From a virus (lineage: Duplodnaviria > Caudoviricetes), in IMG/VR virus record IMGVR_UViG_3300011415_000001, positions 1 to 62,379 of that record: 62,379 bases of DNA; one strand, written 5' to 3'. The translations under genes and the position numbers were made by a program. This document shows, piece by piece, positions 7,883 to 42,155 of the stretch; positions within the stretch are counted from its first letter, which is position 1, and each line of letters opens with the position of its first letter. The notes under the pieces are model-generated. The model ran no database searches and had not been told where the DNA came from. It was given only the letters and a program-made list of their open reading frames with translations.

Positions 7883-8461
7883 GTGAGCACGGACTGGATC
7901 GCCATGGGCGACGAAGCGGCAAAGCCAGCGCGAAGCACCCGTCCTCTCAGGGAGCGCCTGCCGTGGATCCCGTGCTCAGAGGGCGAGCTCGAATGCTGCA
8001 ACTGCGGGAACTTCTGGGGCGGGAAGATGGCTCCGTGTGGCATCCACGCCTACTGCTCGCTCTGCCGCGGACGGGGCCGCGACGACGATCACGACTGCGC
8101 GGAGCACGACGAGCCGTCCGCCGTGTTCCATCGCATGGACCGCGACTGTCGCGAGTGCGGACAGCGCCATCTCGATTGGGAGCGGTGCGCGGCGATCTGG
8201 AACGAGCGCGCGAAGGACACGCCTGAGGAGCAGGAAGAGGAATGGGACCGCTGGATCGCGCGCATCGAAGAGGGCTACGAGAAAGCGCATGAAGGCATCG
8301 ACGACTGGGCGCGCGCGCTCGAGCTACTGAAAGAACTACGCGCCGAGGTCGCACGGCTGCGCGCGGAACTCGCCAAGCGAGAGACCGAACTAGCTCGCGC
8401 GCCCTTCGCGTGCGAGGACACAGGTGGTGATACCGGAGGAGTGGGATGGAAACCGCAGTAG
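7883..8461 (+). CDS. Cys/His-rich protein with a C-terminal coiled coil
   Basis: GTG 7883; CCNC, CSLC, CREC. Confidence 0.55.
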   Translation: MSTDWIAMGDEAAKPARSTRPLRERLPWIPCSEGELECCNCGNFWGGKMAPCGIHAYCSLCRGRGRDDDHDCAEHDEPSAVFHRMDRDCRECGQRHLDWERCAAIWNERAKDTPEEQEEEWDRWIARIEEGYEKAHEGIDDWARALELLKELRAEVARLRAELAKRETELARAPFACEDTGGDTGGVGWKPQ

Positions 8462-9738
8462 CAACGTATGAACCGTCGATCGACGAGCTGATTGCGCAGA
8501 GCCTTCTGCCGCGAGTACCTTGGCCGTCGCGGCGCACCAAAGGGACGATCACAGTCACCGACTACAACGGCCTTCAAGCCGCGATCGACGCCGCGCACGG
8601 AGGCGACATCATCCGGCTCGTCGGGAAGAAGTTCGCCGGCTTCAAGATCAAGAAGGCATGGGGATTCAAACTCACCGAGAGCTGGATTCCGCCCGATCGC
8701 TCGGTGCAGGTCGTGTGCATCGTGAACGGCAACCCAGACGGCACGCAGCCGATCATCGAAGGCTTCGCCGTCTGGCAGATGAACAACGGCACGGAGCTCT
8801 GGTGCGTCGACCTCGGCATCAAGCCGGCCGAATGGCAGGAGGAGAACAACGACGGCGCGCTCGAGTGGGTCTCCGGCCCGTACTGCTTCGGCGGTCCAAT
8901 CACTGGCATGCCAGGATCTCTGCGCTTCAAGAACTGCACGCTGTACGACGCGGAGAAGTCGAAGAGCTACGGCGGGAGCGGCCTCAAGGCCGGGTGCCGA
9001 ACGACGCGGATGGGTCTTCACTTCGAGGGCTGTCGATCTGCTGATGGCGCGATCGCTCAGGAGCAGTGGATCTACCCCGACAACTGCGCGTTCTTCATCC
9101 AAGATGGATGCGACTGGGGTCCTTGCGGTCGGTCCCACTACCAGACGGGCACGCGGAACTTCTACCAGATGCCCGACAGGTTCCTCGGCATCCTCGTGCA
9201 GAACTCGAAGTTCCGCGACGGCTTCTGTGGGAGCGCGAACGCGGGCTCGAACACGGTCTACGGATACCCGGGACTCGTGGTCATGCGAAATAACCTGATC
9301 CAAAGCAACGGGTGGGACGGGCTCGTCTGGGACCCGGAGCTGAAGAAGATGGTGCAGAAGCACATCGATCCAACGGCCGGCGTCGTCGTGTGGCGCGCGT
9401 ACAACGAAGGCGGAGCGAAGCTTGACGCTGATGGCTTCGCGACCTCGATACTCGTGATCGACAACGTGAAGGTCTCGATCGGGCCTGGAGGACTCGACGC
9501 GTGCACGTTCGAGTGGATCAACCGCGCGCACATCCGTGGCCTCGACACCACCGGAAGCGCGAACGGCGCGCACCACGTCAACAACCCGGGGCAGTACAAC
9601 ACGCACGGCATCGCGAATCTGCGGCTGTACGGCCCGCCGTTCCCCCCGATCCGGACGCACATCGGCGACTCCACGTCGAAGCAGTGGCACACATGGACAC
9701 AGGAGGAGCTGCTCGCGGCTACGAAGGTTTCCGCCTGA
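8446..9738 (+). CDS. Right-handed beta-helix (pectin-lyase-like) protein, 430 aa
   Basis: N-cap LQAAIDAAHGGDIIRL; strand repeats LRFKNC, LHFEGC, ILVQNS, VVMRNN, LVIDNV; strong RBS GGAGGAG. Confidence 0.65.
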   Translation: METAVATYEPSIDELIAQSLLPRVPWPSRRTKGTITVTDYNGLQAAIDAAHGGDIIRLVGKKFAGFKIKKAWGFKLTESWIPPDRSVQVVCIVNGNPDGTQPIIEGFAVWQMNNGTELWCVDLGIKPAEWQEENNDGALEWVSGPYCFGGPITGMPGSLRFKNCTLYDAEKSKSYGGSGLKAGCRTTRMGLHFEGCRSADGAIAQEQWIYPDNCAFFIQDGCDWGPCGRSHYQTGTRNFYQMPDRFLGILVQNSKFRDGFCGSANAGSNTVYGYPGLVVMRNNLIQSNGWDGLVWDPELKKMVQKHIDPTAGVVVWRAYNEGGAKLDADGFATSILVIDNVKVSIGPGGLDACTFEWINRAHIRGLDTTGSANGAHHVNNPGQYNTHGIANLRLYGPPFPPIRTHIGDSTSKQWHTWTQEELLAATKVSA

Positions 9739-11269: not shown

Positions 11270-11526
11270 ACAGAACCGAGACGGCTTTCCTTGTTGCGCT
11301 AGTGGTCGGTGTGCTGACTGTTATCTTCTTTGGCGTGAGGCACGAAATGCGCAACATGCGTTGCCTTCGAGAGTGCGAGCTCGAGTTCGTTGAGCGTCGC
11401 TACGATCCGCCGGAGAACGAACGCGCGCAGAGATTCTCTCTGATCTTCCGATGCCACCGGCACGAGCGGCGACTCGTTCAGTACGTTCCGGAGAGCGAGT
11501 GGAATAAGCGAGTGGAGGCCGAATGA
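11266..11526 (+). CDS. Membrane-anchored hypothetical protein
   Basis: N-terminal TM AFLVALVVGVLTVIFFGV. Confidence 0.55.
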   Translation: MNRTETAFLVALVVGVLTVIFFGVRHEMRNMRCLRECELEFVERRYDPPENERAQRFSLIFRCHRHERRLVQYVPESEWNKRVEAE

Positions 11527-11900
11527 GCATCTGGAAATGGATCGCACGATGGTGGCGGCGCCCGGCCCTGTTCGATCAGGAGTTGCGGGCGCTGAGCGCC
11601 GCGAACCACGCCCTGCGAAACGAGCTCGCGAAAGCGCGGGCTGAGCGCGAGGCAATCCGCCGCGAGGCCGAGAAGCTCATCGCTGGCGCGCTAGAGACGC
11701 CGAGCTCCGTCGTCGCAGCCGAGGGAATCCGTCTCGCGCGCTCCGAGGCCGACGACCTCCGCTGCGAGATCGAGAAGCTGCGCGGCATCCTCGCCGATCT
11801 GCTCCAGATGGACGGAAGCGACCTCGCAGAGCTCACGCTCGAGGAGATCGCGGCGATGGTGATCGAGTGGCGGAAGGCGAAGTCGGAAGAGAAGCCGTAG
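11523..11900 (+). CDS. Coiled-coil hypothetical protein, last gene of the rightward arm
   Basis: ATGA coupling; heptads. Confidence 0.65.
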   Translation: MSIWKWIARWWRRPALFDQELRALSAANHALRNELAKARAEREAIRREAEKLIAGALETPSSVVAAEGIRLARSEADDLRCEIEKLRGILADLLQMDGSDLAELTLEEIAAMVIEWRKAKSEEKP

Positions 11901-11907
11901 ACGACTC

Positions 11908-11942
11908 GGCCCCCGCTCGACTTTGAATCGGGCGAGGGCCTT
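11908..11942. terminator. Hairpin where the two arms converge (probable terminator)
   Basis: GGCCCCCGCTCGA/TCGGGCGAGGGCC inverted repeat between convergent stops at 11900 and 11967; U-tract weak. Confidence 0.55.
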
Positions 11943-11966
11943 GGTGAATCGTGGCGGCGGCGACGG

Positions 11967-12248
11967 TCAGACGAACGTCCGCGCCCCGCCCCGGTACTGA
12001 GCGACCCGGGTATCTCCGGGCTTCGCCGTGTACCCCTCGAGCTCGACGCGATAGGGCTTGGCCGCCGCGGTCTTCCCCTTCGTCGCCGCCAAGATCACGT
12101 TGCGGATCTTGCCGTCAGCGGCCGAGAGCGATGCGGCTACGGCGCTCGCATCGGCCTCGGCCGCGAAGTGATCGGACTCGGATGCGAGCTCGGCCGCCGC
12201 TTCTCGACGGGCTTCTGCGCGCTCCGATGCTGTTTCCTTGTGCTCCAT
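11967..12248 (-). CDS. Hypothetical protein
   Basis: RBS AGAGGA; last gene of the late arm. Confidence 0.65.
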   Translation of the reverse strand: MEHKETASERAEARREAAAELASESDHFAAEADASAVAASLSAADGKIRNVILAATKGKTAAAKPYRVELEGYTAKPGDTRVAQYRGGARTFV

Positions 12249-12257
12249 GGTGTTCCT

Positions 12258-12314
12258 CTACGGGCGCGGCTTCGGCGCCGGTTTCGGTTCAGGCTTGGGC
12301 TTGGGCTTGGGCAT
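12258..12314 (-). CDS. 18-aa Pro/Lys micropeptide MPKPKPKPEPKPAPKPRP
   Basis: GGAG 6 nt before the ATG; fills the gap between two genes; below the ORF-track cutoff. Confidence 0.5.
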   Translation of the reverse strand: MPKPKPKPEPKPAPKPRP

Positions 12315-12332
12315 GTGGACTCCGGTTGACGA

Positions 12333-12587
12333 TCAGGCGAACGGGCCAGGCATCGGCACATCGGTCGGGGGCGGCGGGAACGGGCTGTCGGCATTGGCGC
12401 CGATCGCCTTGAGGTTCGTAGAGAACGCGGCGAGACGCGCGAGCACGTTCTCGGTCTGCGCGCCGTTCAGGCCATCCGTCGCCGTCTTGTTGATGTCGTC
12501 GATGAGCTTCTGGACCGACGCGGCCAAAGTGTTCGTGGTCGCGTCCATGTCGTCGAGAATGGTTCCAACGTCGTCGTACTTTGTCAT
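12333..12587 (-). CDS. Small helical protein with a Pro-rich tail
   Basis: ATGA coupling; similar to the C-half of 12584-12925. Confidence 0.7.
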   Translation of the reverse strand: MTKYDDVGTILDDMDATTNTLAASVQKLIDDINKTATDGLNGAQTENVLARLAAFSTNLKAIGANADSPFPPPPTDVPMPGPFA

Positions 12588-12925
12588 GGGGAATCTTCTT
12601 CGGTTTCGGGTTTCAGCTTGCCGATCGCATCGAGCCGCGTGGCAATACCGCGCAACCGCTCGATCTGCTCAGTGCTAACTTGACCTGCCTGATCTGCCGT
12701 GATCGCGGCGATCTGCGCGCCAAGCTCGGTGGTCTCCGAGTCGATCTTCGCCATCTCGGTACGGTGCGCACGCACGACGACCTCGGTGAGCCTGTCCAGC
12801 TTATCCAAGACGCGCTCCGAGCTGTTGTCATCGATGGACTTGAGCGCGCGCAGCGTCAGTGCCTGCAAGAGATTGGATATCTCCGGATGGAGGCATTTCG
12901 GGATCACGTCGGAGTCCTGGTGCAT
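12584..12925 (-). CDS. Helical/coiled-coil protein
   Basis: ORF track; coupled to the next gene. Confidence 0.65.
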   Translation of the reverse strand: MHQDSDVIPKCLHPEISNLLQALTLRALKSIDDNSSERVLDKLDRLTEVVVRAHRTEMAKIDSETTELGAQIAAITADQAGQVSTEQIERLRGIATRLDAIGKLKPETEEDSP

Positions 12926-12992
12926 CGCAGTCGGCCTTTCGCAACTACCACTCTAGCCCTCGACCTGTAGCGTTCCGAGCCCCTAGATATAC

Positions 12993-13364
12993 CTACCCTT
13001 GGGGCGCGAAGGTGAGTCCCAGGGCCGCGATTTCCTCGCTGGTGAGCAAGGCCCGTACGGCCGGCTCGGTCCACGCGGGCAGCGGCTCGCCGAGTCCGAC
13101 CGTCACGTCGAGGTCGGCGTCGCGGTCGATCACCCGCACGGCATCGGTCGCCGCGACGAGCGGGCGCGTGAGCCGGAGCTGCCCGTCCGAGTCGACCTGG
13201 TAGATCCCGGCCTCGCCCGTGCCGTGGACGATGATGAGCGTTCGCGTGCCGTCTGTGGCAACGACTCCATTGCCGTTGACGTGGCCCTTCGCCACAAGCC
13301 CAAGCCCGCCATCGCTCGCGCACGCGGCGAGCACCAGGGCGGCGATTACAAGTGCGTTTCTCAT
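12993..13364 (-). CDS. Lipoprotein (o-spanin-like position)
   Basis: Signal peptide with lipobox MRNALVIAALVLAA-C. Confidence 0.7.
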   Translation of the reverse strand: MRNALVIAALVLAACASDGGLGLVAKGHVNGNGVVATDGTRTLIIVHGTGEAGIYQVDSDGQLRLTRPLVAATDAVRVIDRDADLDVTVGLGEPLPAWTEPAVRALLTSEEIAALGLTFAPQG

Positions 13365-13582
13365 GCTGTTCTCTCCCTCTCACCCGCGGCGACGATGGCC
13401 GCTTCCTTCTGTTTCGATCTGTTGAAGTTGTAGCTGACGTTCGTGGCTGCCACCGCGAACATGGCGCAGCACTGCACGCGCCAGTCGTCGGACTGAAACG
13501 CGAGCAGCACCCACGCCGCATCGACAGCGATCCCGCGACCGAACTCGGTCTCCTTGTAGCCAGGCCTCACCTTGTCAGCCAT
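13361..13582 (-). CDS. Small putative 2-TM holin-like protein
   Basis: PGYKETEF, two moderately hydrophobic segments, then YNFNRSKQK. Confidence 0.55.
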   Translation of the reverse strand: MADKVRPGYKETEFGRGIAVDAAWVLLAFQSDDWRVQCCAMFAVAATNVSYNFNRSKQKEAAIVAAGERERTA

Positions 13583-13589
13583 AGAGGTA

Positions 13590-13712
13590 GCGACGCGCGC
13601 CGGACCTTCTGTGGCGAGCGAACATCGCTCGTGCGCCGCGGCAGCCCATAGGCTCGTTCCAAGAAGGACCGACGACCTGCCGAAGCACAGAAATCCACCC
13701 AGCGCGCGCCGC
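13590..13712 (-). ncRNA. Candidate structured RNA element (multibranch) upstream of the holin-like gene
   Basis: Long closing stem GCGGCGCGCGCUGG..GGAUUUCUGUG / CACAGAAGGUCCGGCGCGCGUCGC enclosing several hairpins. Confidence 0.4.
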
Positions 13713-13718
13713 CATGCG

Positions 13719-14531
13719 TTACTTCTTCATCGCTCCGAGGTCGGCGATCGGCTGTCCGGTGTCGTCCCACACGTTGCCGACGCGCAAGAGCTGATCCGCG
13801 GAGCAGTCCGTTTCGAGCAGCTTGTACTGGTAGTCCCGGCCGAATCGGTTGTAACTTAGCGAGCAGTGGGTCGGCGGCCCCTTGCCCTTGTCCGTGAAGT
13901 ACACGCAGTAGCCGCCGCCGTTGAGCCAGCAGTACTCGACGCTCACGTAGCTGATCGGGCCGTCGCCTGTTTGGATGATCAGCGCCGCGTTCGACCGGAA
14001 CGTCCCGCCGCCGCCGGCCGCCGCATACGCCGCGTAACCGGGCGTCCCGGGCGCGGGCATGTTGATGTTGCAGCGGAAGTACCGCGAGTGTGATCCGAGT
14101 CGCTGCTGCACACCGTCGGCGTGGGCATCCACTGCCATGCCGAGATGGTGGAAGTAACAGAACTCGGCGAGCGCGCCACCAGACTGGTCTTTGAACGCGT
14201 CCGCGCCGCAGTGGTGGATCTCGACGCGCTTCAAGTGCGCCGGTGACTGCGCGTAAATTCCCGCGCTCGACGCGTTCCTGACCCGCCCGTGCGCCGTAGA
14301 GAACTCCTCGACGCCCGGCTTGACGTGGATCCCGTATGCTCCACCCTTCGCGTCGAGCTCGTAGTCCTCGATGGTGACGTCGTGAGCTTCGACGACGATC
14401 TGACCGTCGATCTTCACGGCCGAAAGCCTCGTGCCATCCTTCGTGATCGTCATGCTGTCCATCGGCTTGAGCACGACTCCGGCGCGCGGGCCGGTGTTCT
14501 TCTCTGTCGGTCGCCTGTCGGTGATTGTCAT
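13719..14531 (-). CDS. Right-handed beta-helix protein in the lysis cluster
   Basis: PTEKNTGP start motif; ITKDG, VTIEDY, HADGVQ, CWLNGGGY, YNRFGR. Confidence 0.75.
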   Translation of the reverse strand: MTITDRRPTEKNTGPRAGVVLKPMDSMTITKDGTRLSAVKIDGQIVVEAHDVTIEDYELDAKGGAYGIHVKPGVEEFSTAHGRVRNASSAGIYAQSPAHLKRVEIHHCGADAFKDQSGGALAEFCYFHHLGMAVDAHADGVQQRLGSHSRYFRCNINMPAPGTPGYAAYAAAGGGGTFRSNAALIIQTGDGPISYVSVEYCWLNGGGYCVYFTDKGKGPPTHCSLSYNRFGRDYQYKLLETDCSADQLLRVGNVWDDTGQPIADLGAMKK

Positions 14532-14911
14532 CTATCGCATTCCTCACAGTTGTGGGTGGCGCAGTAGCTTGCGACGGCCGCATCGAGGGCCGCTTGCGAC
14601 GGCGCGCAGAACTTGACGTGGTAGGGAACGCCGCCGGCCGTGGTGCAATCGCTTTCCCAGCAAAAGTCCGCGTCCGTCATCGGTTGTCCGCCGAAAACGT
14701 GGCGCTCGGCGCGAACGACGAGGTCTGGGAACGACTCGCCGGGGCGCGAGATGAACTCGAAGTGCGTTTCTCGGTAGTCGTACTCGATCGTGTGGACGTC
14801 GTGGACCATGGCTCCGAGCTCCTGTATGGCTAGGTTCTGTCGACGCAGCGCGATGCCGAAGGCGATCAGCGCGCCCACGAAGAAGCAGATCAGTACGACG
14901 TGCCATTTCAT
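14528..14911 (-). CDS. N-terminally membrane-anchored protein with a Cys-rich C-terminus
   Basis: TM VVLICFFVGALIAFGIAL; six Cys in the C-terminal half. Confidence 0.65.
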   Translation of the reverse strand: MKWHVVLICFFVGALIAFGIALRRQNLAIQELGAMVHDVHTIEYDYRETHFEFISRPGESFPDLVVRAERHVFGGQPMTDADFCWESDCTTAGGVPYHVKFCAPSQAALDAAVASYCATHNCEECDR

Positions 14912-14925
14912 GGGCGAGCACTACC

Positions 14926-15297
14926 CTACCTCCCGATGAAGAGCGGAGTATCCGGATACTTCTGGCGCAGGTGGTCCACCCAGAGCAGAAAGGGCTCCAG
15001 CCGCACCTTGTTCGTATCGAGGTCCTTGATGCTCGCGTTGATGTCGCTGAGCTGCTTCTCCATTCGTTCCGCGGAGACTTCCTGTTGGCGCCGCAGCTCG
15101 GCCGCGTCCGTGCGCTGCGTCTCCCGTGTCGACTGGAGCTCGGCGACGAGCGAGGAGATGTCAGAGCGCACACTCCCCATGTAGATCACGAGCATGGCGA
15201 GGAATGGCGCGAGCGCTCCGACCGCGGCGAAGACGTGGCCGACCTTGACCCGATTGTTCGGACCGATCTCGACCACGGACTCCTTGTCCTGCGTCAT
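14926..15297 (-). CDS. 1-TM plus coiled-coil protein (holin/i-spanin-like)
   Basis: TM VFAAVGALAPFLAMLVIYM followed by heptads. Confidence 0.65.
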   Translation of the reverse strand: MTQDKESVVEIGPNNRVKVGHVFAAVGALAPFLAMLVIYMGSVRSDISSLVAELQSTRETQRTDAAELRRQQEVSAERMEKQLSDINASIKDLDTNKVRLEPFLLWVDHLRQKYPDTPLFIGR

Positions 15298-15319
15298 GCA
15301 CCAATCCCCGCGTCGGGCG

Positions 15320-15469
15320 CTACTGCCCCTTCGGCAACTGCTGCACGAGCATGTAGACGCAGATCAGAAGCACCGGAATGCACCATCCCCACGGGTACGT
15401 GGCCTGCTTGACCGCCGCCAGAATCGTGCAGATGAAGGCGGCAATCGCGAGAATGATTAGAACGGTCAT
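15320..15469 (-). CDS. Small 2-TM membrane protein
   Basis: MTVLIILAIAAFICTILAAV...WCIPVLLICVYMLV; RBS AGGAG. Confidence 0.6.
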   Translation of the reverse strand: MTVLIILAIAAFICTILAAVKQATYPWGWCIPVLLICVYMLVQQLPKGQ

Positions 15470-15516
15470 GTTCTTGGCTCCTATTTCTCCCTGTCCGAGT
15501 CCTGGTCGTTCCATTC

Positions 15517-15876
15517 CTATGCCCGGTCATCCAGGCGTTCGTTGCCGCGAGGCGTTCTCGGCCCGAGGTCGCCGATCCGCGCGTGATTGGTGCGCCCGAA
15601 GTAGAACCCGACGACGAGAAAGAACGCGGACTCCAAGAGCAGGCTCTTGCTTCTGTCGTCGGATGCCTTGGAGAACCACTGCACGAAGACGTAGATGATA
15701 TTCGCCGCGACCACGCCGATCGCGATGGATGCCTGGGTCATCTCCCAGACCATGTTCAGCTTTCGCTGTCCCGCGGTGCGGAGGTCCTGTTCGCTCGTCG
15801 TAGTGGGCGGAACGGACGGCTGCGCCGGGGCGGCGGCATCCGCGTTGACCGTGGTGTTCGCTTTGTTCTCGACCAT
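15517..15876 (-). CDS. 2-TM holin-like protein
   Basis: Two TMs ending FFLVVGFYFGR, a holin-like C-terminal motif. Confidence 0.6.
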   Translation of the reverse strand: MVENKANTTVNADAAAPAQPSVPPTTTSEQDLRTAGQRKLNMVWEMTQASIAIGVVAANIIYVFVQWFSKASDDRSKSLLLESAFFLVVGFYFGRTNHARIGDLGPRTPRGNERLDDRA

Positions 15877-15992
15877 CACGCAACCCCACTCCATGCCGGC
15901 ACAAGGCGCCGCATTCCACCCCGAATCCCTAGCCCACAGCCGAGTAGGGTAGAATCGCCCTCCCCGTCCAATGCCATCCCAGGAGCGATCAA

Positions 15993-16727
15993 GTGAACTT
16001 CCGAACCGCCTCTCTCGTCACCGCCCTCGTCGCATCTCTCGTCGCGAACCTGCGCTCGCCGGCCCCACAGATCGGCGGGGACGTTCGCGAGTTTCTCTCG
16101 CACGTGCGCATGGTCGACATGCCGGACGGCTACGGGGGAATGGTCCGCACCGTGCGCATCGAAGGGCTGAACGTGCAGATCGTCAACGGCCTCGGGCGCA
16201 CCGAGGGAGTGAACGCGAGCGGGAATCTGATCATCGGCTACGCCGAGAACCCGCTGAACAATCCGCCGATGCGCGTTGGCTCGCACAACTTGATCGTCGG
16301 GCCGGGACACAACTACGGGCCGGCCGCGTACGGAGGCGTCATCTTCGGCGTCGAGAACACGCTGCTTGGCCCTTCCGGCTCGGTCACGGGCGGGCACCTG
16401 AATCGGGCGGCATGCCACTACTCCTCGATCACTGGCGGCAGCGAGAACGCCACGGCCGCGAACGGCGCCGTCGTGAGCGGCGGGCACGGCAACACAGCAA
16501 TCGGCGGGGACACGTGGGTCGGCGGCGGCGAACACAATGTCGCGGCCGGCGCTAGCTCCGCAATCGTTGGCGGAGCGAACAACCGCGCGGACGGCCCCCT
16601 CTCCACGGTCAGTGGAGGAACTGCGAATGACGCCACCGGCTCCGGTTCTAGCGTAAGTGGTGGCTTCAACCGCAGCGCGATCAGCTTCGATGACTGGGTC
16701 GCCGGATCGCTCTTCGAGGATCAGTGA
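15993..16727 (+). CDS. Secreted protein with SxSGGxxNxAxG beta-roll repeats (inverted moron)
   Basis: Signal-peptide-like N-terminus; NVQIVNGLG...GNLIIGY...GSHNLIVG; about 7 tandem 14-aa repeats; RBS AGGAG. Confidence 0.75.
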   Translation: MNFRTASLVTALVASLVANLRSPAPQIGGDVREFLSHVRMVDMPDGYGGMVRTVRIEGLNVQIVNGLGRTEGVNASGNLIIGYAENPLNNPPMRVGSHNLIVGPGHNYGPAAYGGVIFGVENTLLGPSGSVTGGHLNRAACHYSSITGGSENATAANGAVVSGGHGNTAIGGDTWVGGGEHNVAAGASSAIVGGANNRADGPLSTVSGGTANDATGSGSSVSGGFNRSAISFDDWVAGSLFEDQ

Positions 16728-16738
16728 GCGGAGTTTCA

Positions 16739-17440
16739 TCAGCGGGAGAACTGCACGTAGAAGTCGATTGCCGACGTCTCGGCCGTGTGCACCCAGAGCG
16801 TCGGCGGATCTCCCGCGTCCCACTCGTAGTACACGGGGAAACCGAGAACGGCGTGCAGGCCGCCATCCGCGGCGGTCGAGCTCGGGGATGCGCGCAGCAG
16901 TTTCGTGGGCGTGGCAGCCACGCTTTCCACGTTCGGATTGATGATCCAGAGCTGTGTTGCGCCCTGTGGGATCAGCACGTCAGGATCAGCTCCGGCCGCG
17001 AGCGTCGCCCCGGCCCACGAGGCATTCGACAAGTCATCCGCAACCTGGATGAGATTCCCATCGGCGCCGCCGCGGCGGGCTGTAGCCGTCATGACGCCCG
17101 CCACATTGGAGCCAACGACGTCCTCGTTTCGCCTGGTCGAGAGCGAGAACGTGGTTAGTCCGGCGGTCTGGTTCAGGGCATCCTTTGTGTTCGTCCCCAT
17201 CGCCGTCACGTCCGCCCCGATCTTGATCTGGTTCGGGATGCTGTTCGTGATCGTGTCCTTGTACGTGTAGACCCGCGTGCCGCTCGGGCCGATGACCGTC
17301 ATGGTCTGCCCGTCCGTCGGCAGTCCGGTGAACGTCAGATCGCGCGCGGCAGCCGCCCCAGCGGAGGCAGGACCGATCTTTTTCGGCCCCGTGTTGATCA
17401 CGGTGTAATTGTCGATCGCGGGCCTCGAGATCCTGACCAT
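16739..17440 (-). CDS. Probable virion structural/decoration protein
   Basis: Insert LTFTGLPTDGQTMTV...IKIGA...TATARRGGADGN...LAAGAD resembles a beta domain common in phage tail proteins. Confidence 0.6.
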   Translation of the reverse strand: MVRISRPAIDNYTVINTGPKKIGPASAGAAAARDLTFTGLPTDGQTMTVIGPSGTRVYTYKDTITNSIPNQIKIGADVTAMGTNTKDALNQTAGLTTFSLSTRRNEDVVGSNVAGVMTATARRGGADGNLIQVADDLSNASWAGATLAAGADPDVLIPQGATQLWIINPNVESVAATPTKLLRASPSSTAADGGLHAVLGFPVYYEWDAGDPPTLWVHTAETSAIDFYVQFSR

Positions 17441-18675
17441 CAGAAGGCCTCCGCGTTGTTGAAAGCAATCGCGTTGTAGTCGGCAGGGTCCTTGTTCTCG
17501 TCGTGGTCAGCAATGCACCCGGAACGCAGGACCGAGCCGGACGAATCGGTGATGAGCTCGTTGTTGTACTCGCCCGTGCTTCCGTTCCACTTCCGCGCAC
17601 CGATGCGACAGTTTCGGATCCGGTTGTTGATGACACTGCTCGGGAGCGTCGTGCCCCACTGGAATGTCGTATTGCCACCGAGGACCCAGCAGCTACGGAT
17701 GAGGAAGTTCTCGATCAGTCCATGATCCGGCGTGCCGTCTATCTGGAAGCAGGCGTTGTATCCGTACCCAGCCGGCTTAGCCGAGTAGGCCAGATTGAAG
17801 AAGCAGCGATAGGCGTCGAAGTTGCGCAGGATCCACGCGCTCTGCTTCTGCGTGGCGTCGCCGTGGACGCCGCTCTGGTACTGCCCGTTCGCGCCGATTT
17901 TTTCGATGTAGCAGGACTCAAGGCGGATACCCCGGCCGTTCAGCGTCAGGAAGTCCGCGCCAACGTCATGGATATGGCAACGCAGGAAATAGACGTCTTT
18001 GAAGTAATCGCCGTAGTTCAGGAACACCTCGTACGAGAGCGAGAAGTGCCCGAGTGCGCCATCGTTTCCAAGCTCGCAGTCGATGAAGGCGAGACCGCTC
18101 CTACCGTTGTCGAGCTTGACGCTGTAGTCGCCGGAGACCGTGCGCTTGAACCAACAGTGATCGAGCGTGACGTCGTCCGCCTTGATCGTGGTCTGTCCGT
18201 CGAAGATCAGACCGTAGTAGGTGCCGGACGAAGTAATGTTGCCGGTCCAGGTCTGCGTGGCAAACCCATGGTGCCCTGTGTTCGTTGCGCTCGGCTTCTC
18301 GGCCGCTCGCTCGCACGTGAGCGTATGCACGTTCGTCACGCCTATGTTCGTGTACCCGTTGTCGACGAGCGTGATGACATAGGTTTCGCTCGTGTCGAGG
18401 TTCTCGTTCACGAGGATCGGAACGGAGAACGTCGTGGCACCGGCCTGGACGATGAACTCGTTACTGGCGTCGAGGTCGCGGATAATCCAGTCGAAGTCGT
18501 AGCGCCCCGTCCCGCCGGTCGAGACGCGAATGGGGAACGCCGTGGTCGCGGCCGGCGTGATGGTCCCGGTGACCTCTGTGTAGAGCCCGACGTCATCCTT
18601 GATTGTCGCCGCTGCGGACGAGAATGCGATCGTGGGCGTCGGCGTGATCTTGGTCGGCCAGATCGGTAGAGCCAT
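17440..18675 (-). CDS. Calx-beta/Ig-like domain plus right-handed beta-helix (putative tailspike depolymerase)
   Basis: PTIAFSSAA...AGATTFSVPILVN...ETYVITL, then PSATNTG, VTLDHC, HGDATQ, CWVLGG. Confidence 0.7.
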   Translation of the reverse strand: MALPIWPTKITPTPTIAFSSAAATIKDDVGLYTEVTGTITPAATTAFPIRVSTGGTGRYDFDWIIRDLDASNEFIVQAGATTFSVPILVNENLDTSETYVITLVDNGYTNIGVTNVHTLTCERAAEKPSATNTGHHGFATQTWTGNITSSGTYYGLIFDGQTTIKADDVTLDHCWFKRTVSGDYSVKLDNGRSGLAFIDCELGNDGALGHFSLSYEVFLNYGDYFKDVYFLRCHIHDVGADFLTLNGRGIRLESCYIEKIGANGQYQSGVHGDATQKQSAWILRNFDAYRCFFNLAYSAKPAGYGYNACFQIDGTPDHGLIENFLIRSCWVLGGNTTFQWGTTLPSSVINNRIRNCRIGARKWNGSTGEYNNELITDSSGSVLRSGCIADHDENKDPADYNAIAFNNAEAF

Positions 18676-18679: not shown

Positions 18680-18922
18680 TCAGCCTCCCGCGCCCGTCAG
18701 CGCATCGAGCAGGGCAATCAGTGCGTCCGCGGCGATCGGCACGGATGACGTGGATCCGCGCGTGATCGTCGCCACCGTGGACCAAGACGGTTCGCCGACG
18801 CCGTCCGTCCCGGCCTTCTCGATCACGTAGCCAGTTCCATCGGACTTGACGAGCAGGCGGTGATTCGTGATCGCCACGCCCGCGGTCACAGAGTAATTCT
18901 GAACGAGTGCGGCTTGGGGCAT
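18680..18922 (-). CDS. Small hypothetical protein, possibly structural
   Basis: Start overlaps the sulfatase stop (TGATG). Confidence 0.6.
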   Translation of the reverse strand: MPQAALVQNYSVTAGVAITNHRLLVKSDGTGYVIEKAGTDGVGEPSWSTVATITRGSTSSVPIAADALIALLDALTGAGG

Positions 18923-20694
18923 CAGGCGAACTCCGCGAGAAGGGCGTCCATGTCGGCGCGAACGATCGCGAGCTGACCCGAGAAGTTCGAGTCGGCGATG
19001 ATGTTCGTCTGCTGGTCCCAGTCGGACGATGCGGGTGAGCCGGCCGATGTGCCGATCCGGTAGAACTCCTCGGTCGTCAGCTTCGTCGTCGAGCTGTAGA
19101 TGCGGAGCAGCGAGTAGAGCCCAGCGGCATTTCCCGTGTACCCGTCGCCCGAGCGGATGTAGCGGTGGAACGCGCGCTCGCGGCGCACCTCGGATGCGAG
19201 AAGCCCCTGGCTATCGACGTCGTCGGGATCGCCGTTCGGCTTGAAGTACTCGACGAGGCAGTGTTTCTTCGTGTGCGCGTCGATCCCGTGGTTCGAGTTC
19301 TGCAGCGCGGGCAGGATCGACGTGCCATCCGTTGGCTGCGAGCCGCCCACCTGCGAATAGGGCACGTGCATGATGTTCCGGAACGTCTCGAAGAGATCGA
19401 CGTGGATGTCGACCGGGATCGGCGACGTGCGCGGGAGCGTGCCGGCGCAGGCGGGGCCCTGCACCCAGAGCGGAACCCACGAGCCGAGGTTGTAGACCGT
19501 GCCTTTCGACTTGTCGACGAGGTTCCCGAAGTCGCCGATCGTCGGGTTTCCGACGTCATCGTACAGTGCCTTGACGCCTTTCAGGATGCCGATCTCCGTC
19601 CCGTTGTCGGAGGTGACGAAGATGTTCGTCCGCGACTTGATCGAGGCGGTGATCCCGTTCACGAGGTTGCCGAATTCGACGTCGACTGCCTCGCGCATCG
19701 AGCCGTAGTACGCCCACGCCTGGACGGCGGAGTTCGCGTGCCCGTACTGGTTCGTGTAGACCGAGCGGACCGTGTAGCCAGCGAGCGCGGCATCGTGAAA
19801 TGGCGCGTGTGGCAGGTTGAATGCGACGACACAGACCCAGGGCTGGTTCGCCGGATCGTTCATCCATTCGAGAGCCTTCTGGACCTTCACCTTGTCGAGG
19901 TACTGCGCGGCGCCGTTGTAGAGCGTCGAGGCCGCGTCCCCCTTCGCGCGCGCGTAGTACCCGCCGTTGTTTCCCTGCGCGGTCGCGACGCCGTAGCTAC
20001 CGTACGGGCTCACTCCGTTGTAGGGCTGCGGCTTCGTGCCGGCGTTCTTGAGAATCGCCCACCAATGGGTCCACTTGCCGACGCTGTCGAGGTGCGACCA
20101 TCCGGATGCTGGGATCGCTGTGCCGCCCGGAGTCGTCGTGTTCTCGACCGTGTTCAGCGGATCGACCGTCGCATCTGTTCCACCCCAGAGATCGAGGTGC
20201 CACTTGCCGAAGAAGCCCGACTGGTAGCCCGCCGCCGCCGCGATCTCGGCCAAGACGTACTCACGCCGCTGGACATAGCCGGCCGCCCCCGGGGCCGCGA
20301 CGTCGACGCCGAACTCGCCGAGCGCGTTGCCGACCCCGCCGACACCACGGTCGAGAGCGATGATCGAGCCTACGCCTGTGCGCGATGCGTAGCGGCCCGA
20401 GTACATGCCCGCACGCGTCGGCGAGCAAACTGGGTTTGAGCGCGCCTGATAGAACTGGACGGTCGCGCCGTTGTGGAACGCATCGAGATTCGGCGTGTTC
20501 GCGTAGACGCCCTTGTTGAAGAGATCCGTCTCGGTCCCGACGTAGCCTTCCGCTCCGAAGATCGAGTCGTATTTCCGGCACTGATCGACGCCCATGTCGT
20601 CGAAGTAGCAGAGCAGGATGTTGTCTTTGCGCTGTTCGATATCGACCGTCACCTTGACGCTCGGAGTCGCGGCGTTCGTGCTGACTTCGACCAT
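18922..20694 (-). CDS. Type I (formylglycine-dependent) sulfatase
   Basis: NILLCYFDDMG, TPNLD, CSPTRAGMYSGRY (CxPxR), FFGKWHL, PHAPF, SDNG, KSKGTVY..GSWVPL; no signal peptide. Confidence 0.92.
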   Translation of the reverse strand: MVEVSTNAATPSVKVTVDIEQRKDNILLCYFDDMGVDQCRKYDSIFGAEGYVGTETDLFNKGVYANTPNLDAFHNGATVQFYQARSNPVCSPTRAGMYSGRYASRTGVGSIIALDRGVGGVGNALGEFGVDVAAPGAAGYVQRREYVLAEIAAAAGYQSGFFGKWHLDLWGGTDATVDPLNTVENTTTPGGTAIPASGWSHLDSVGKWTHWWAILKNAGTKPQPYNGVSPYGSYGVATAQGNNGGYYARAKGDAASTLYNGAAQYLDKVKVQKALEWMNDPANQPWVCVVAFNLPHAPFHDAALAGYTVRSVYTNQYGHANSAVQAWAYYGSMREAVDVEFGNLVNGITASIKSRTNIFVTSDNGTEIGILKGVKALYDDVGNPTIGDFGNLVDKSKGTVYNLGSWVPLWVQGPACAGTLPRTSPIPVDIHVDLFETFRNIMHVPYSQVGGSQPTDGTSILPALQNSNHGIDAHTKKHCLVEYFKPNGDPDDVDSQGLLASEVRRERAFHRYIRSGDGYTGNAAGLYSLLRIYSSTTKLTTEEFYRIGTSAGSPASSDWDQQTNIIADSNFSGQLAIVRADMDALLAEFA

Positions 20695-22323: not shown

Positions 22324-22745
22324 AGCGCTGCCTGCGTCGTGCGCAGGATCCATCCGGTGACCGAGAGGTACTTGGCCGTCGCCGTCGACGTGTCCGCGTA
22401 GGCTGCGACCGTCCAGGTCGTCGCCGCCGTGAAGCGCAGTCGTTCGCCGGCGAGGATCCATACCCAGCTCTTCTCTGGCACCTGGTACTTGACGACCGCG
22501 GCATCGATGTCCGTCGTACCAGTCGTCGTCGCCGGACTGATCGAGACGACTACGTCGTGCCGGTTGACGTCGTTGTTCCAGACCTTCAACCAGATGGTAT
22601 CGAGCTGGTCTGCCGTTGCATCGACGAGGTGGAGTGGCGTCACGTCCGAGGCAATCGTGTAGTCGTTCACGATCTGAATCGGGCGGCCGTTCGTGGCGAA
22701 CGATAGATCGTCAGCCCATACAAGGTCCTGGGGAACCGCTGTCAT
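22320..22745 (-). CDS. Small virion structural protein
   Basis: Beta-rich; coupled between the tail-tip and fibre genes. Confidence 0.6.
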   Translation of the reverse strand: MTAVPQDLVWADDLSFATNGRPIQIVNDYTIASDVTPLHLVDATADQLDTIWLKVWNNDVNRHDVVVSISPATTTGTTDIDAAVVKYQVPEKSWVWILAGERLRFTAATTWTVAAYADTSTATAKYLSVTGWILRTTQAAL

Positions 22746-27658: not shown

Positions 27659-28089
27659 TGACCACCCCCCAAGAGCACGGGTATGGTCGAGGCGAGGCGC
27701 GCCGCATGGGTCAGCCGGTAGACCCCGACGATCCCCTGGACACGGCGCACGGGCAGCGAGTGGACCCCGTGCTCCTTCGTCGATGTGAGGACCAGGCGGT
27801 TCCGCTCGTCGACGAGGCAGGAGACGTGGTAGCCGCGCTCGCCGTGGGAGAGGATCACGTCGAGGAGCTCCGAGGCGATGACGCTGGAGGCCCCCAGGAA
27901 GCGCCAGGGCGAGGGCAGCTCGGTCTCTGCCGTCCACTCGCGCGGCATGTCGGCCGGTGCGAGGACGTGGCCCCCGCGCGCGTAGGCGATCTTGAGCGCC
28001 CCGACGCAGTCGAGGCCGGTCGCGCTGTCCTCCCCGCCCTCGGCCCACTTGATCTCGAGGAGGTCCCGGTAGTCGATGGCGCGATTCAT
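27655..28089 (-). CDS. Tail-tip NlpC/P60-like protein (gpK-like)
   Basis: W.EGG...GLDCVG...HV; position between the L and J homologs. Confidence 0.75.
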   Translation of the reverse strand: MNRAIDYRDLLEIKWAEGGEDSATGLDCVGALKIAYARGGHVLAPADMPREWTAETELPSPWRFLGASSVIASELLDVILSHGERGYHVSCLVDERNRLVLTSTKEHGVHSLPVRRVQGIVGVYRLTHAARLASTIPVLLGGGQ

Positions 28090-39648: not shown

Positions 39649-39866
39649 GCGGGCGCGACCACGCAATGCCCGGCAAAGGCCGGATTGTTCACGAGCTCGC
39701 CCGGCACCTCGTCTCCCTGCGAGTAGCTCTTGCCCTCGTGCAGGACGTGATCGCCTGCGCAGATGACGTAGCGCGCGGCGGGCTTTCGCACAGCGGGAAT
39801 CGGCGCCTTCACCGGCTCGCGGTGCACGCCTTCCTCGCGCGTCTGGTAGTCCTTCGGATTCTCCAT
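39645..39866 (-). CDS. Small head-associated protein
   Basis: HEGKSYSQGDEV motif typical of post-capsid genes. Confidence 0.6.
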   Translation of the reverse strand: MENPKDYQTREEGVHREPVKAPIPAVRKPAARYVICAGDHVLHEGKSYSQGDEVPGELVNNPAFAGHCVVAPA

Positions 39867-42154: not shown

Positions 42155-42155
42155 G

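What the first reader, a model, noticed from the sequence alone, without database searches (positions are those of the whole stretch)
12993..15876. Lysis-like cluster with five membrane proteins and a lipoprotein but no recognisable endolysin; a beta-helix protein sits in the endolysin slot
Seen: two 2-TM proteins, a TM-coiled-coil, a TM Cys-rich protein, the soluble 270-aa beta-helix (13719-14531), a holin-like protein and a lipobox protein. I see no amidase, muramidase or M15/M23 motif anywhere; the only NlpC-like ORF is the tail gpK. Inference: exit may use a polysaccharide lyase/hydrolase against a non-canonical envelope glycan, which would be a new lysin class.
Basis: partly seen in the sequence, partly recalled or inferred. 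Interest (0 to 1): 0.75.

Follow-up and report, generated by a model that had tools for sequence, protein, structure and literature searches.

The report
Phage exit cassette with beta-helix glycanase
A complete 62-kb phage genome has no recognisable cell-wall-cutting enzyme, and a small sugar-chain-degrading beta-helix enzyme sits beside a widespread, unnamed holin-like membrane protein where that enzyme would normally be; it could be a new kind of phage exit enzyme, but this is not shown.

Summary
The window is a complete virus record of 62,379 bp. The seven minus-strand genes at 12993-15894 exist as described. Four have hydrophobic TM segments and one has a lipobox. The 73-aa "holin-like" ORF shows no TM segment.

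No peptidoglycan hydrolase was found by Pfam on 80 ORFs, PHROGs on 30 ORFs, or six-frame searches with 7 lysin families.

The 270-aa protein folds confidently (pLDDT 96) as a right-handed beta-helix. It belongs to a large uncharacterised family (1130 representatives, motif AHADGxQ). Every cellular member I inspected carries a signal peptide or lipobox; the phage copy does not.

The 125-aa 2-TM protein belongs to an unnamed phage family (78 viral loci). In 50 records, 9 of 14 canonical lysin hits lie within 2 kb of it (expected 1.6). Unrelated beta-helix proteins follow it in 3 records. A second contig keeps the order 2-TM, small 2-TM, beta-helix ortholog, lipoprotein.

So the "lysis-like cassette with a beta-helix in the enzyme slot" is supported. 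That the enzyme is the lysin, or cuts peptidoglycan, is not shown. In the best-resolved comparable cassette (L103) the beta-helix sits beside a canonical SLT lysin. I favour an accessory exit glycanase.

The parts
15517..15894 (-). g28, holin-like 2-TM protein. The ORF is 125 aa; the likely start is at 15876, giving 119 aa. It is the founding member here of an unnamed phage membrane-protein family.
   Evidence: TM 56-74 plus a weaker second hydrophobic stretch and a charged C-terminus. There is no significant Pfam or PHROG family. It has 139 clusters of relatives, none named holin and none with a Pfam domain. 78 viral loci carry a homolog. It is 58% identical to the homolog next to the beta-helix ortholog in L039. 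It is linked to canonical lysins in other phages.
15320..15514 (-). g27, 64-aa protein with two TM segments; a candidate second holin or antiholin.
   Evidence: Two hydrophobic windows, 17-35 and 39-60. A 57-aa 2-TM ORF holds the same position in L039, and small TM ORFs follow the family in 10 loci (cluster 3). No sequence similarity to these was detected.
14926..15297 (-). g26, 123-aa protein with an N-terminal TM followed by a probable coiled coil; shaped like an i-spanin.
   Evidence: TM 22-40. There are weak coiled-coil Pfam hits, all below cut-off, and a weak PHROG hit to Rz-like spanin, phrog_739, E=0.0025.
14528..14911 (-). g25, 127-aa protein with an N-terminal TM and a 7-Cys domain. 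Its stop overlaps the start of g24 by 4 bases. Function unknown.
   Evidence: No Pfam or PHROG family. The Atlas gave no usable hit.
13719..14531 (-). g24, 270-aa soluble right-handed beta-helix enzyme without a signal peptide; the probable polysaccharide-degrading enzyme of the cassette.
   Evidence: AlphaFold2 pLDDT 96.4, pTM 0.93, with the beta-helix over residues 17-270. Structural neighbours are an alginate lyase (6kfn), an alginate epimerase/lyase (8ja4), tailspikes and GH87. HMMER finds 1130 representatives at E<=1e-3. D111, G131, H137, D139, Q142 and G206 are invariant and K114 nearly so. Pfam Beta_helix scores only E=0.0026, below cut-off.
13361..13582 (-). g23, 73-aa ORF of unknown function. 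Its stop overlaps the start of g22 by 4 bases. Not supported as a membrane protein.
   Evidence: No hydrophobic window reaches 1.6. No family found.
12993..13364 (-). g22, 123-aa predicted lipoprotein (lipobox LAAC); o-spanin-like by position only.
   Evidence: Signal sequence and lipobox are read from the sequence. No family found. A non-homologous lipobox ORF follows the beta-helix ortholog in L039.
17440..18675 (-). g31, 411-aa protein of the tail-fibre region. Residues from about 118 onward are a paralog of g24, preceded by an extra N-terminal domain.
   Evidence: BLASTP against g24: 25% identity over 229 columns, E=8e-8. It lies between the sulfatase and the 233-aa ORF, downstream of the gpJ-like gene.
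8446..9738 (+). g13, 430-aa third beta-helix protein, without a signal peptide.
   Evidence: Atlas feature score 0.95 to Beta_helix clusters, and TM about 0.7 by structure. Its homolog (28% identity, E=1e-20) lies directly upstream of the 2-TM gene in L039. It is unrelated to the g24 family by hhalign.
18922..20694 (-). 590-aa type I sulfatase in the tail module. It is context for a sulfated glycan on the host surface.
   Evidence: Pfam Sulfatase, E=1e-21. The C-x-P-x-R motif (CSPTR) is invariant among six relatives. A small clade at 37-64% identity is followed by a drop to 28%.

Best explanation
The genes at 15894-12993 are the phage's exit (lysis) cassette.

Proposed roles:
- g28, probably together with g27, is a holin-type membrane protein.
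- g24 is made in the cytoplasm without a signal peptide. It reaches the envelope only when the membrane is breached.
- There it degrades a polysaccharide layer of the host envelope: a capsule, an exopolysaccharide or another non-peptidoglycan glycan, perhaps acidic or sulfated. That layer would otherwise hold back the progeny.
- This makes g24 an accessory exit enzyme in the sense of mycobacteriophage LysB, not a replacement for peptidoglycan cleavage.
- g26 (TM plus coiled coil) and g22 (lipoprotein) may act like spanins.
- The enzyme that cuts peptidoglycan, if the host needs one, remains unidentified.

Shown: the genes, the fold, the size of the family, the lack of a signal peptide, the linkage of the 2-TM family to lysins, and the conserved gene order in L039.

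Inferred: holin function, the substrate, the timing and the role in exit.
For: 1. g28's family is linked to lysis genes.
- 78 viral loci carry a homolog.
- I searched 50 of the 63 non-redundant loci that have at least 1.5 kb downstream. In one search only 49 were searched.
- Whole-record Pfam searches gave: GH24 in 4 of 49, GH19 in 1 of 50, SLT in 4 of 50, M15_4 in 3 of 50, Hydrolase_2 in 2 of 50, Amidase_2 in 0 of 50.
- 9 of these 14 hits lie within 2 kb of the 2-TM gene on the same strand: L076, L059, L080, L103, L077, L088, L061, L065, L067. The expectation is 1.56 and the Poisson-binomial P is 1.4e-6.

2. Beta-helix proteins recur in that slot.
- PF13229 hits lie immediately downstream of the 2-TM gene in L103, L070 and L074.
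- L074's protein shows no relation to the g24 family by hhalign. The g24 profile finds nothing in any of the 78 loci.

3. Gene order is conserved in a divergent contig.
- L039 has a 2-TM homolog (58% identity), then a 57-aa 2-TM ORF, then the g24 ortholog P0025 (37% identity), then a lipobox ORF.

4. All 22 homologs I inspected begin with a signal-peptide-like or lipobox-like N-terminus, by my reading (21 in genome-collection loci and 1 in viral contig L002).
- g24 and its orthologs P0006 and P0025 lack one and share a C-terminal DLxxxKK tail.
- The enzyme therefore acts outside the cytoplasm, but the phage form cannot use Sec.

5. g24 starts directly with the beta-helix, at residue 17. Its paralog g31 in the tail region has an extra domain of about 120 aa at the N-terminus.

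6. The family is fused to carbohydrate modules in 8 of the 10 long members I scanned: Laminin_G_3, BACON_2, heparinase II/III, CHB_HEX_C and a galactose-binding domain.

7. In L103 the beta-helix sits between the 2-TM gene and an SLT lysin. This fits an accessory role.

8. There is a precedent for a third lysis enzyme aimed at a non-peptidoglycan layer: LysB (PMC6116005, passage read).
Against: - No function was tested. 'Holin' rests on linkage and topology only. The family has no name and no Pfam or PHROG membership.
- 5 of the 14 lysin hits are far from the 2-TM gene (L090, L111, L072, L058 and the SLT of L077).
- In 37 of the 50 records none of the six families was found, so the slot is mostly unread.
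- The beta-helix proteins of L103 and L070 do carry signal peptides, so holin-dependent release is not general.
- In the window, three genes separate g28 from g24, and a plus-strand ORF (15993-16727) separates the cassette from the tail genes.
- P0006, the closest ortholog, overlaps the end of a gene that resembles a tail fibre to me (recalled, untested).
- A paralog in the tail module (g31), a sulfatase and a third beta-helix suggest that the phage's glycan enzymes may all serve entry.
- The i-spanin and o-spanin candidates are not adjacent, and the PHROG hit is weak (E=0.0025).
Confidence: 0.45

Rival explanations
1. g24 is itself the endolysin. It would be a beta-helix enzyme that cleaves the host's stress-bearing wall polymer (peptidoglycan or its glycan strands), released by the g28/g27 holin.
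For: - No peptidoglycan hydrolase was found anywhere in a complete genome.
- g24 is the only enzyme-like protein in a cassette whose first gene is linked to lysins.
- The same order is kept in L039, with no other enzyme between the 2-TM genes and the lipoprotein.
- The family occurs in Planctomycetota, Actinomycetes, Gammaproteobacteria and Gemmatimonadota, and peptidoglycan is one substrate they all share.
- 1 of the 10 long members scanned carries PG_binding_1.
Against: - No structural neighbour or 44 is a peptidoglycan hydrolase by its listed title. The listed ones are lyases, epimerases or hydrolases of other polysaccharides, or tailspikes.
- The fusion partners point to environmental polysaccharides.
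- In L103 a beta-helix in this slot coexists with an SLT lysin.
- Unrecognised lysins are common in this phage group. Among the 20 records that are at least 90% complete, the six-family tallies were 0, 0, 2, 1, 1 and 0. Absence of a hit is therefore weak evidence.
Confidence: 0.15
2. g24 is a receptor-destroying or matrix-clearing depolymerase with no part in lysis. It would be either a free enzyme released passively at burst, which helps virions diffuse and adsorb, or an enzyme bound non-covalently to the tail next to its paralog g31. Its place near membrane-protein genes would be an accident of module order.
For: - The fold matches phage tailspikes and depolymerases as well as anything else.
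- A paralog with an N-terminal domain lies in the tail region, beside a sulfatase.
- In viral contig L002 the homolog follows a 1145-aa and a 242-aa ORF, as in a tail module.
- P0006 follows a gene that looks like a tail fibre (recalled resemblance).
- Halos made by free depolymerase are known (PMC6116005, passage).
Against: - g24 has no virion-anchoring domain.
- Its start overlaps the stop of the TM protein gene g25.
- The linkage to the 2-TM family is kept in L039 although the rest of the gene order differs.
- Two or three unrelated beta-helix proteins sit in the same slot in other phages.
- The homolog in L002 has a signal peptide, so that record says little about virion association.
Confidence: 0.3
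3. The cluster is not a lysis cassette. The small membrane proteins and the lipoprotein would be superinfection-exclusion or other accessory (moron) genes, and lysis is encoded elsewhere by unrecognised genes.
For: - None of the seven proteins reaches a curated family threshold.
- The 73-aa ORF is not membrane-like.
- Lipoproteins and small TM proteins are also typical of exclusion systems (general knowledge, recalled).
Against: - The significant linkage of the g28 family to canonical lysins.
- In 10 loci a terminase-like 545-aa ORF lies about 1.9 kb downstream (cluster 4; 'terminase' is my reading of the sequence). This is a usual place for lysis genes.
- The cassette is co-directional with, and next to, the late structural genes.
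Confidence: 0.1

Closest known systems
Holin-endolysin-spanin lysis cassettes of tailed phages of Gram-negative bacteria (the lambda S-R-Rz/Rz1 type)
   Same: It is a run of small membrane proteins, one soluble enzyme without a signal peptide, a TM plus coiled-coil protein and a lipoprotein. All are co-directional at the end of the structural genes. Homologs of the first gene sit next to GH24, GH19, SLT, M15 and Hydrolase_2 lysins in other phages.
   Different: The enzyme is a beta-helix of an uncharacterised family, not a peptidoglycan hydrolase. The spanin-like genes are separated by three genes instead of being adjacent or nested. No member reaches any curated holin, endolysin or spanin family threshold.
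Mycobacteriophage LysB (mycolyl-arabinogalactan esterase), an accessory lysis enzyme for a non-peptidoglycan envelope layer
   Same: It is the precedent for an extra lysis-cassette enzyme that removes a host-specific outer layer after the membrane and wall are breached (PMC6116005, passage read).
   Different: LysB is an esterase acting on lipid-glycan ester bonds, which is a different fold and chemistry. LysB phages also carry a recognisable LysA; no such partner is recognised here.
Phage tailspike and capsule depolymerases with a right-handed beta-helix (HK620 TSP, CBA120 TSP2, K1 lyase, Dettilon gp208)
   Same: The fold is the same (Foldseek E 2.6e-4 to 4e-3; VIA Z 18-21 over about 210-227 residues). 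A paralog lies in the tail module.
   Different: g24 is only 270 aa and has no N-terminal particle-binding domain. Sequence identity is 7-13%. Its gene lies among membrane-protein genes, not among tail genes.
Alginate lyase of Paenibacillus sp. FPU-7 (6kfn), alginate epimerase/lyase (8ja4) and mannuronan C5-epimerases AlgE4 and AlgG
   Same: These are the best structural matches: Z 22.5, 22.1, 21.1 and 20.6, with rmsd 2.0-2.8 A over 204-215 residues. They are of similar compact size. An acidic His/Asp motif lies on one rung. From memory, AlgG and AlgE carry a DPHD-type motif; I did not check this here.
   Different: The Z list is flat (Z>=18 for 40 entries), so the ranking does not single out this family. 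Identity is 9-16%. Neither a profile nor a single-sequence search of PDB sequences finds a relative. The motif here is AHADGxQ.

Membership tests
Canonical endolysins (peptidoglycan hydrolase families GH24, GH19, GH25, SLT, Amidase_2, M15, M23, NlpC/P60) | A significant match of g24, or of any ORF of the genome, to a peptidoglycan-hydrolase family | tested here: not met
   Pfam on 80 ORFs found none. Six-frame searches with 7 families at E<=1 gave 0 matches each while the controls rang. PHROGs on 30 ORFs found no endolysin family.
Right-handed parallel beta-helix (pectate-lyase-like) superfamily | The three-dimensional fold: stacked rungs of three beta-sheets | tested here: met
   AlphaFold2 pLDDT 96.4. 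VIA Z up to 22.5 over residues 17-270, with only beta-helix proteins at the top of the list. Foldseek prob 1.00 to tailspikes, GH87 and polysaccharide lyases.
Right-handed parallel beta-helix (pectate-lyase-like) superfamily | Pfam PF13229 Beta_helix above the gathering score | tested here: inconclusive
   E=0.0026, 17.8 bits against a cut-off of 25.9. Some relatives pass it: P0003 and P0036 and P0048.
Phage tailspike / virion depolymerase | An N-terminal particle-binding or adaptor domain before the beta-helix | tested here: not met
   The beta-helix starts at residue 17, and residues 1-16 are without secondary structure and of lower confidence. The paralog g31 does have about 120 extra N-terminal residues.
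Phage tailspike / virion depolymerase | Presence in the virion and trimeric assembly | not testable with these tools
   This needs virion proteomics or a solved oligomer.
Holins (for g28, 15517-15894) | A small protein with at least one TM segment and a charged C-terminus | tested here: met
   119-125 aa. TM 56-74 plus a weaker second hydrophobic stretch. The C-terminus is ...PRTPRGNERLDDRA.
Holins (for g28, 15517-15894) | A gene adjacent to the endolysin gene | tested here: met
   This is met for relatives, not for the window itself. 9 of 14 canonical lysin hits in 50 records lie within 2 kb on the same strand.
Holins (for g28, 15517-15894) | Membership of a described holin family | tested here: not met
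   There is no Pfam or PHROG family at E<=0.01 (best Pfam hit E=0.036). None of the 120 relatives listed (of 139 found) carries a Pfam domain or the name holin.
Holins (for g28, 15517-15894) | Timed lethal permeabilisation of the cytoplasmic membrane | not testable with these tools
   This needs an expression test.
Two-component spanins (g26 as i-spanin, g22 as o-spanin) | i-spanin: an N-terminal TM and a periplasmic coiled coil. o-spanin: a lipobox lipoprotein. | tested here: inconclusive
   The TM and the lipobox are present. The coiled coil rests only on sub-threshold Pfam hits. PHROG Rz-like spanin scores E=0.0025.
Two-component spanins (g26 as i-spanin, g22 as o-spanin) | The two genes adjacent, overlapping or nested | tested here: not met
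   Three genes (g25, g24, g23) lie between them.
Alginate lyase of the 6kfn type / mannuronan C5-epimerases | Sequence membership and the family's catalytic motif | tested here: inconclusive
   Similarity is structural only (Z 20.6-22.5) within a flat list. No PDB sequence matches the profile.

The most novel reading that the evidence does not exclude
Signal-less beta-helix glycan-degrading enzymes may be a recurrent and so far unrecognised class of holin-dependent phage lysis enzymes. They would be coupled to a large, unnamed holin family. In this phage and in the L039 phage, g24 would be the principal lysin. That would imply a host, possibly a planctomycete, whose envelope can be opened by cutting a glycan other than peptidoglycan as it is classically attacked, or by a new chemistry on peptidoglycan itself.
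Probability: 0.15. Interest if true: 0.85.

Novelty: new variant of a known kind. Interest (0 to 1): 0.55.

Why it matters
- If g24 works at exit, it adds a polysaccharide-degrading beta-helix to the short list of non-peptidoglycan lysis enzymes, where LysB is the textbook case. It would also show how phages of poorly studied bacteria cross extra envelope layers.
- The 2-TM family is a useful marker whatever g24 does. It has at least 139 protein clusters and 78 viral loci, with no name anywhere. It flags the lysis region in many uncultivated phages.
- Most of those phages show none of the six canonical lysin families tested, so the genes next to the marker are a pool of candidate new lysins.
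- The g24 family itself has 1130 representatives, an invariant Asp/His/Asp/Gln set and no characterised member. It is a candidate new carbohydrate-active enzyme family.

Tried and rejected
Related genomes and context
- The phage collection gave nothing: megablast with 20 kb and tblastn with g24 found no match.
- The search for related loci in viral contigs found nothing with the capsid protein, P0006, P0025 or the sulfatase used alone.
- The capsid protein searched in 401 Planctomycetota genomes gave 16 matches. The 14 aligning over the capsid domain are distant (25-31% identity) and 2 are short marginal hits. No close prophage was found, so this gives no host evidence.
- L049 shares only the sulfatase with the window.

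- Alignment A1 was too diverse to seed a collection scan, so I used the smaller alignments A2 and A3.

Spanin pairing
- Complex prediction with g26 (residues 41-123) and g22 (residues 16-123) gave the verdict 'no answer', score 0.01. This is not evidence either way.

The protein downstream of the beta-helix in L070 and L074
- The family has conserved Cys27, His126 and Asp142.
- AlphaFold2 with a 3-sequence alignment gave pLDDT 36, which is unusable, so I ran no fold search.
- phmmer against PDB found nothing.
- Its identity as a peptidase is therefore only my reading of the conserved residues.
- A profile of it finds nothing in the window at E<=10.

Other dead ends
- L074's beta-helix has no PDB sequence match.
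- The Atlas gave no usable hit for g25.
- The terminator and promoter scan of 11500-17600 was uninformative: 0 promoters and 9 weak terminator-like sites against 3.5 expected.

Host signal I gave up
- I first took the ECF sigma match (PF07638) as a planctomycete marker.
- I dropped this. The window's match is only 34 bits, and the family rings in 8 of 14 control genomes.

Literature
- Three searches found no paper on lysis by planctomycete phages, on beta-helix enzymes inside lysis cassettes, or on phage sulfatases of this kind. The terms were Planctomycetes/phage/endolysin; lysis cassette/depolymerase/holin/beta-helix; and phage-encoded/sulfatase/Planctomycetes/virus.
- I read only the listings and the starts of abstracts. 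Supplementary files were not consulted.

Full report
WHAT THE WINDOW IS

- The window is one complete virus record of 62,379 bp with direct terminal repeats; CheckV rates it 100% complete. The two ends share 123 bp.
- G+C is 63-69% throughout, and there is no tRNA gene.
- I called genes by third-position G+C.
- Pfam and PHROGs identify these genes, all on the minus strand:
  - large terminase, 46781-48514 (phrog_2)
  - portal with a Mu-F domain, 43352-45703, and HK97-type capsid, 40868-42355
  - head-tail adaptor, 39040-39666
  - tape measure, 31977-35204, a weak (below cut-off) gpL-like hit at 28086-28775, and a 1797-aa gpJ-like protein with a Laminin_G_3 domain
- Also present are two DNA methylases, an ECF-type sigma factor, RusA, a weak (below cut-off) RecT-like hit, a PD-(D/E)XK nuclease and an HNH nuclease.
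- Downstream of gpJ come ORFs of 141, 405 and 151 aa, a 590-aa sulfatase (E=1e-21), then ORFs of 80, 411 and 233 aa.
- A plus-strand ORF (15993-16727) follows, and then the cluster in question.

THE OBSERVATION

- Seven co-directional ORFs fill 15894-12993. I call them g28 to g22, after the numbering of my own gene call.
- Hydropathy supports TM segments in g28, g27, g26 and g25, and a signal sequence with the lipobox LAAC in g22.
- Two gene pairs overlap by four bases: the stop of g25 with the start of g24, and the stop of g23 with the start of g22.
- None of the seven proteins reaches a curated Pfam or PHROG threshold. The best leads are Beta_helix for g24 (E=0.0026) and Rz-like spanin for g26 (E=0.0025).

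IS THERE AN ENDOLYSIN ANYWHERE?

- I scanned 80 ORFs against all of Pfam and 30 ORFs against PHROGs. Neither found a peptidoglycan-hydrolase family.
- Six-frame searches of the whole record with Phage_lysozyme, Amidase_2, SLT, GH25, Peptidase_M15_4, NLPC_P60 and Peptidase_M23 at E<=1 each gave 0 matches. The same searches rang in control genomes.
- This absence is not special to this phage. Among 20 records that are at least 90% complete and carry the same 2-TM family, the tallies for six lysin families were 0, 0, 2, 1, 1 and 0.
- A missing hit is thus weak evidence that no peptidoglycan hydrolase exists.

WHAT g24 IS

Fold
- With a 56-sequence alignment, AlphaFold2 gives pLDDT 96.4 and pTM 0.93.
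- The model is a compact right-handed beta-helix over residues 17-270.

Structural neighbours
- Foldseek and VIA-align place it among an alginate lyase (6kfn, Z 22.5), an alginate epimerase/lyase (8ja4, Z 22.1), AlgE4, AlgG, GH87, GH28, PL6 and PL9 enzymes, and many phage tailspikes and depolymerases.
- The list is flat, so it shows the fold class and not a family.
- PDB sequence searches, with the single protein and with the profile, find nothing.

Family
- A full HMMER search finds 1130 representatives at E<=1e-3 and 370 at E<=1e-10.
- The module is usually the C-terminal 250 residues of a longer protein.
- D111, G131, H137, D139, Q142 and G206 are invariant and K114 nearly so, which gives the motif AHADGxQ.
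- Of 10 long members scanned, 8 carry carbohydrate-related partners (Laminin_G_3, BACON_2, heparinase II/III, CHB_HEX_C, a galactose-binding domain). One carries PG_binding_1 and one a phytase domain.

Taxonomic spread
- In the genome collection, 23 loci encode relatives. Eight are labelled Planctomycetota or Phycisphaerae. The rest are Gammaproteobacteria, a Proteobacteria MAG, Gemmatimonadota, Actinomycetes or unclassified.

Signal peptides
- All 22 homolog ORFs I extracted begin with a signal-peptide-like or lipobox-like N-terminus, by my reading. They are 21 of the 23 genome-collection loci plus the viral-contig locus L002.
- g24 and its closest relatives P0006 (45% identity) and P0025 (39%) have none, and they share a C-terminal DLxxxKK tail.
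- Among 151 top family members, about nine are standalone, start with Met and have no hydrophobic N-terminus.

Other beta-helix proteins in the phage
- g24 has a paralog in the phage: residues from about 118 onward of the 411-aa g31 in the tail-fibre region (25% identity, E=8e-8).
- A third, unrelated beta-helix, g13 (430 aa), lies on the plus strand.

THE KEY NEW EVIDENCE: THE 2-TM FAMILY

A second cassette
- A metagenome contig, L039, carries the g24 ortholog P0025.
- Directly upstream lies a homolog of g28 (58% identity over 110 residues, E=3e-36) and then a 57-aa 2-TM ORF.
- Directly downstream lies an ORF with a lipobox.
- Upstream of all these lies a homolog of g13.
- The cassette order is therefore kept while the rest of the genome is rearranged.

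Spread of the family
- With the two g28 sequences as query, 78 viral contigs were found. Their G+C ranges from 36 to 71%, so the family spans many hosts.
- A protein search found 139 clusters. None has a Pfam domain or is named holin.

Linkage to canonical lysins
- I reduced the 78 loci to 63 non-redundant ones with at least 1.5 kb downstream. I searched the whole records of 50 of them with Pfam lysin families (49).
- 14 hits were found in 12 records. Nine lie within 2 kb of the 2-TM gene on the same strand:
  - GH24 in L076
  - GH19 in L059
  - SLT in L080 and L103
  - M15_4 in L077, L088 and L061
  - Hydrolase_2 in L065 and L067
- Random placement would give 1.56 such hits; P=1.4e-6.
- Five hits are far away: L090, L111, L072, L058 and a tail-type SLT in L077.
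- The family is therefore a lysis-cassette protein, most simply a holin. No function has been tested.

What else sits in the slot
- PF13229 beta-helix proteins lie immediately downstream of the 2-TM gene in L103, L070 and L074.
- L074's protein shows no relation to the g24 family by hhalign, and the g24 profile finds nothing in any of the 78 loci. At least two or three beta-helix lineages have thus been recruited next to this gene.
- The arrangements differ:
  - L103: 2-TM gene, beta-helix with a signal peptide, then an SLT lysin.
  - L070: 2-TM gene, beta-helix with a Tat-like signal (my reading), and further on a 259-aa protein.
  - L074: 2-TM gene, beta-helix-like protein without a signal (its PF13229 match is only E=0.004), a 268-aa homolog of the L070 protein, two small TM proteins, and a 466-aa ORF that I read as a terminase.
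- The 259/268-aa family has conserved Cys, His and Asp. This suggests a thiol peptidase to me, but I could not confirm it. It has no homolog in the window.
- In the best-read case (L103) the beta-helix accompanies a canonical lysin.

HOW IT MOST LIKELY WORKS

- My best reading (0.45) is an exit cassette. g28, with or without g27, opens the cytoplasmic membrane. The signal-less g24 then reaches the envelope and degrades a polysaccharide layer other than peptidoglycan.
- This role is analogous to LysB of mycobacteriophages (PMC6116005, passage read).
- g26 and g22 may serve as spanin analogues, and the peptidoglycan-cutting activity is still unrecognised.
- The sulfatase with an intact CSPTR motif, g31, g13 and the Laminin_G_3 domain of gpJ all point to a host with a thick, possibly sulfated or acidic glycan coat. 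That is an inference.

Rivals
- g24 is itself the lysin (0.15). This remains open because no other enzyme is present in two independent cassettes.
- g24 is an entry or diffusion depolymerase unrelated to lysis (0.30).
- The cluster is not a lysis cassette at all (0.10).

HOST

- The host is unknown. Planctomycetota is a lead only.
- In favour: the best cellular homologs of g24 come from that phylum; the nearest named cellular sulfatases include planctomycete ones at 26-28% identity; and the G+C content fits.
- The ECF sigma match is generic, and no close prophage was found in 401 genomes of the phylum.
- Planctomycetes do have peptidoglycan (PMC4432640 and PMC4432595; I saw only the starts of the abstracts). 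A planctomycete host would therefore not remove the need for a peptidoglycan hydrolase.

VERDICT

The claim of a new lysin class is possible but unproven.
- The clearest new results are three: the unnamed holin-like family as a marker of lysis regions; the recurrent recruitment of beta-helix enzymes next to it; and a large uncharacterised enzyme family with the AHADGxQ motif.
- Novelty: a new variant of a known kind.
- Interest: 0.55.

Noticed in passing
window 18922-20694 (-): A 590-aa type I sulfatase lies inside the tail-fibre module (Pfam Sulfatase, E=1e-21). Its C-x-P-x-R formylglycine motif (CSPTR) is invariant among six relatives. Those relatives form a small clade at 37-64% identity, mostly on contigs of 20-41 kb, followed by a drop to 28% for ordinary cellular sulfatases. 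The viral contig L049 shares only this gene with the window, which suggests a mobile phage sulfatase module.
   Followed up: partly
window 15993-16727 (+): A 244-aa ORF with coding-type GC3 (0.83) lies on the opposite strand, between the tail genes and the cassette. It has a hydrophobic N-terminus like a signal peptide and Gly/Asn/Ala-rich repeats. From memory these resemble adhesin or fibre repeats. No Pfam or PHROG family was found.
   Followed up: no
window 8446-9738 (+): This is a third beta-helix protein (430 aa, no signal peptide) on the plus strand. Its homolog lies directly upstream of the holin-like gene in L039, so it may belong functionally to the same exit or glycan-degrading set.
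   Followed up: partly
L057-L134 (78 viral loci) and window 15517-15894: A widespread family of phage 2-TM proteins of about 100-125 aa has the conserved motifs TSEQDxxTAGQRxLNxxWExTQ and GFYFGRTNH. It has no Pfam, PHROG or source name. In 37 of 50 records none of six canonical lysin families was found, so the genes next to it are a pool of possible unrecognised lysins.
   Followed up: partly
L070 8293-9072, L074 7416-8222, L129 1331-2308: A 259-325-aa family with conserved Cys27, His126 and Asp142 (L074 numbering) lies downstream of the holin-like gene in three distinct phage loci. It may be a thiol peptidase lysin. The structure prediction failed (pLDDT 36) and there is no PDB sequence match.
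   Followed up: partly
L040 902-2461 and 2564-3556; L041: Two tandem genes in a metagenome contig both carry the g24-type module (38% and 37% identity to g24).
   Followed up: no
window 12333-12587 and 12584-12925 (-): Two small acidic ORFs (84 and 113 aa) lie just downstream of the lipoprotein gene and overlap by 4 bases. They look helical or coiled-coil, and to my eye they resemble each other at the C-terminal end. No family was found, and I did not test whether they are paralogs.
   Followed up: no
window 22742-28135 (-): The gpJ-like tail protein is 1797 aa long. It carries a Laminin_G_3 (concanavalin-like lectin/glucanase) domain at residues 568-728 in addition to Phage-tail_3. This is one more carbohydrate-binding element in this phage.
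   Followed up: no
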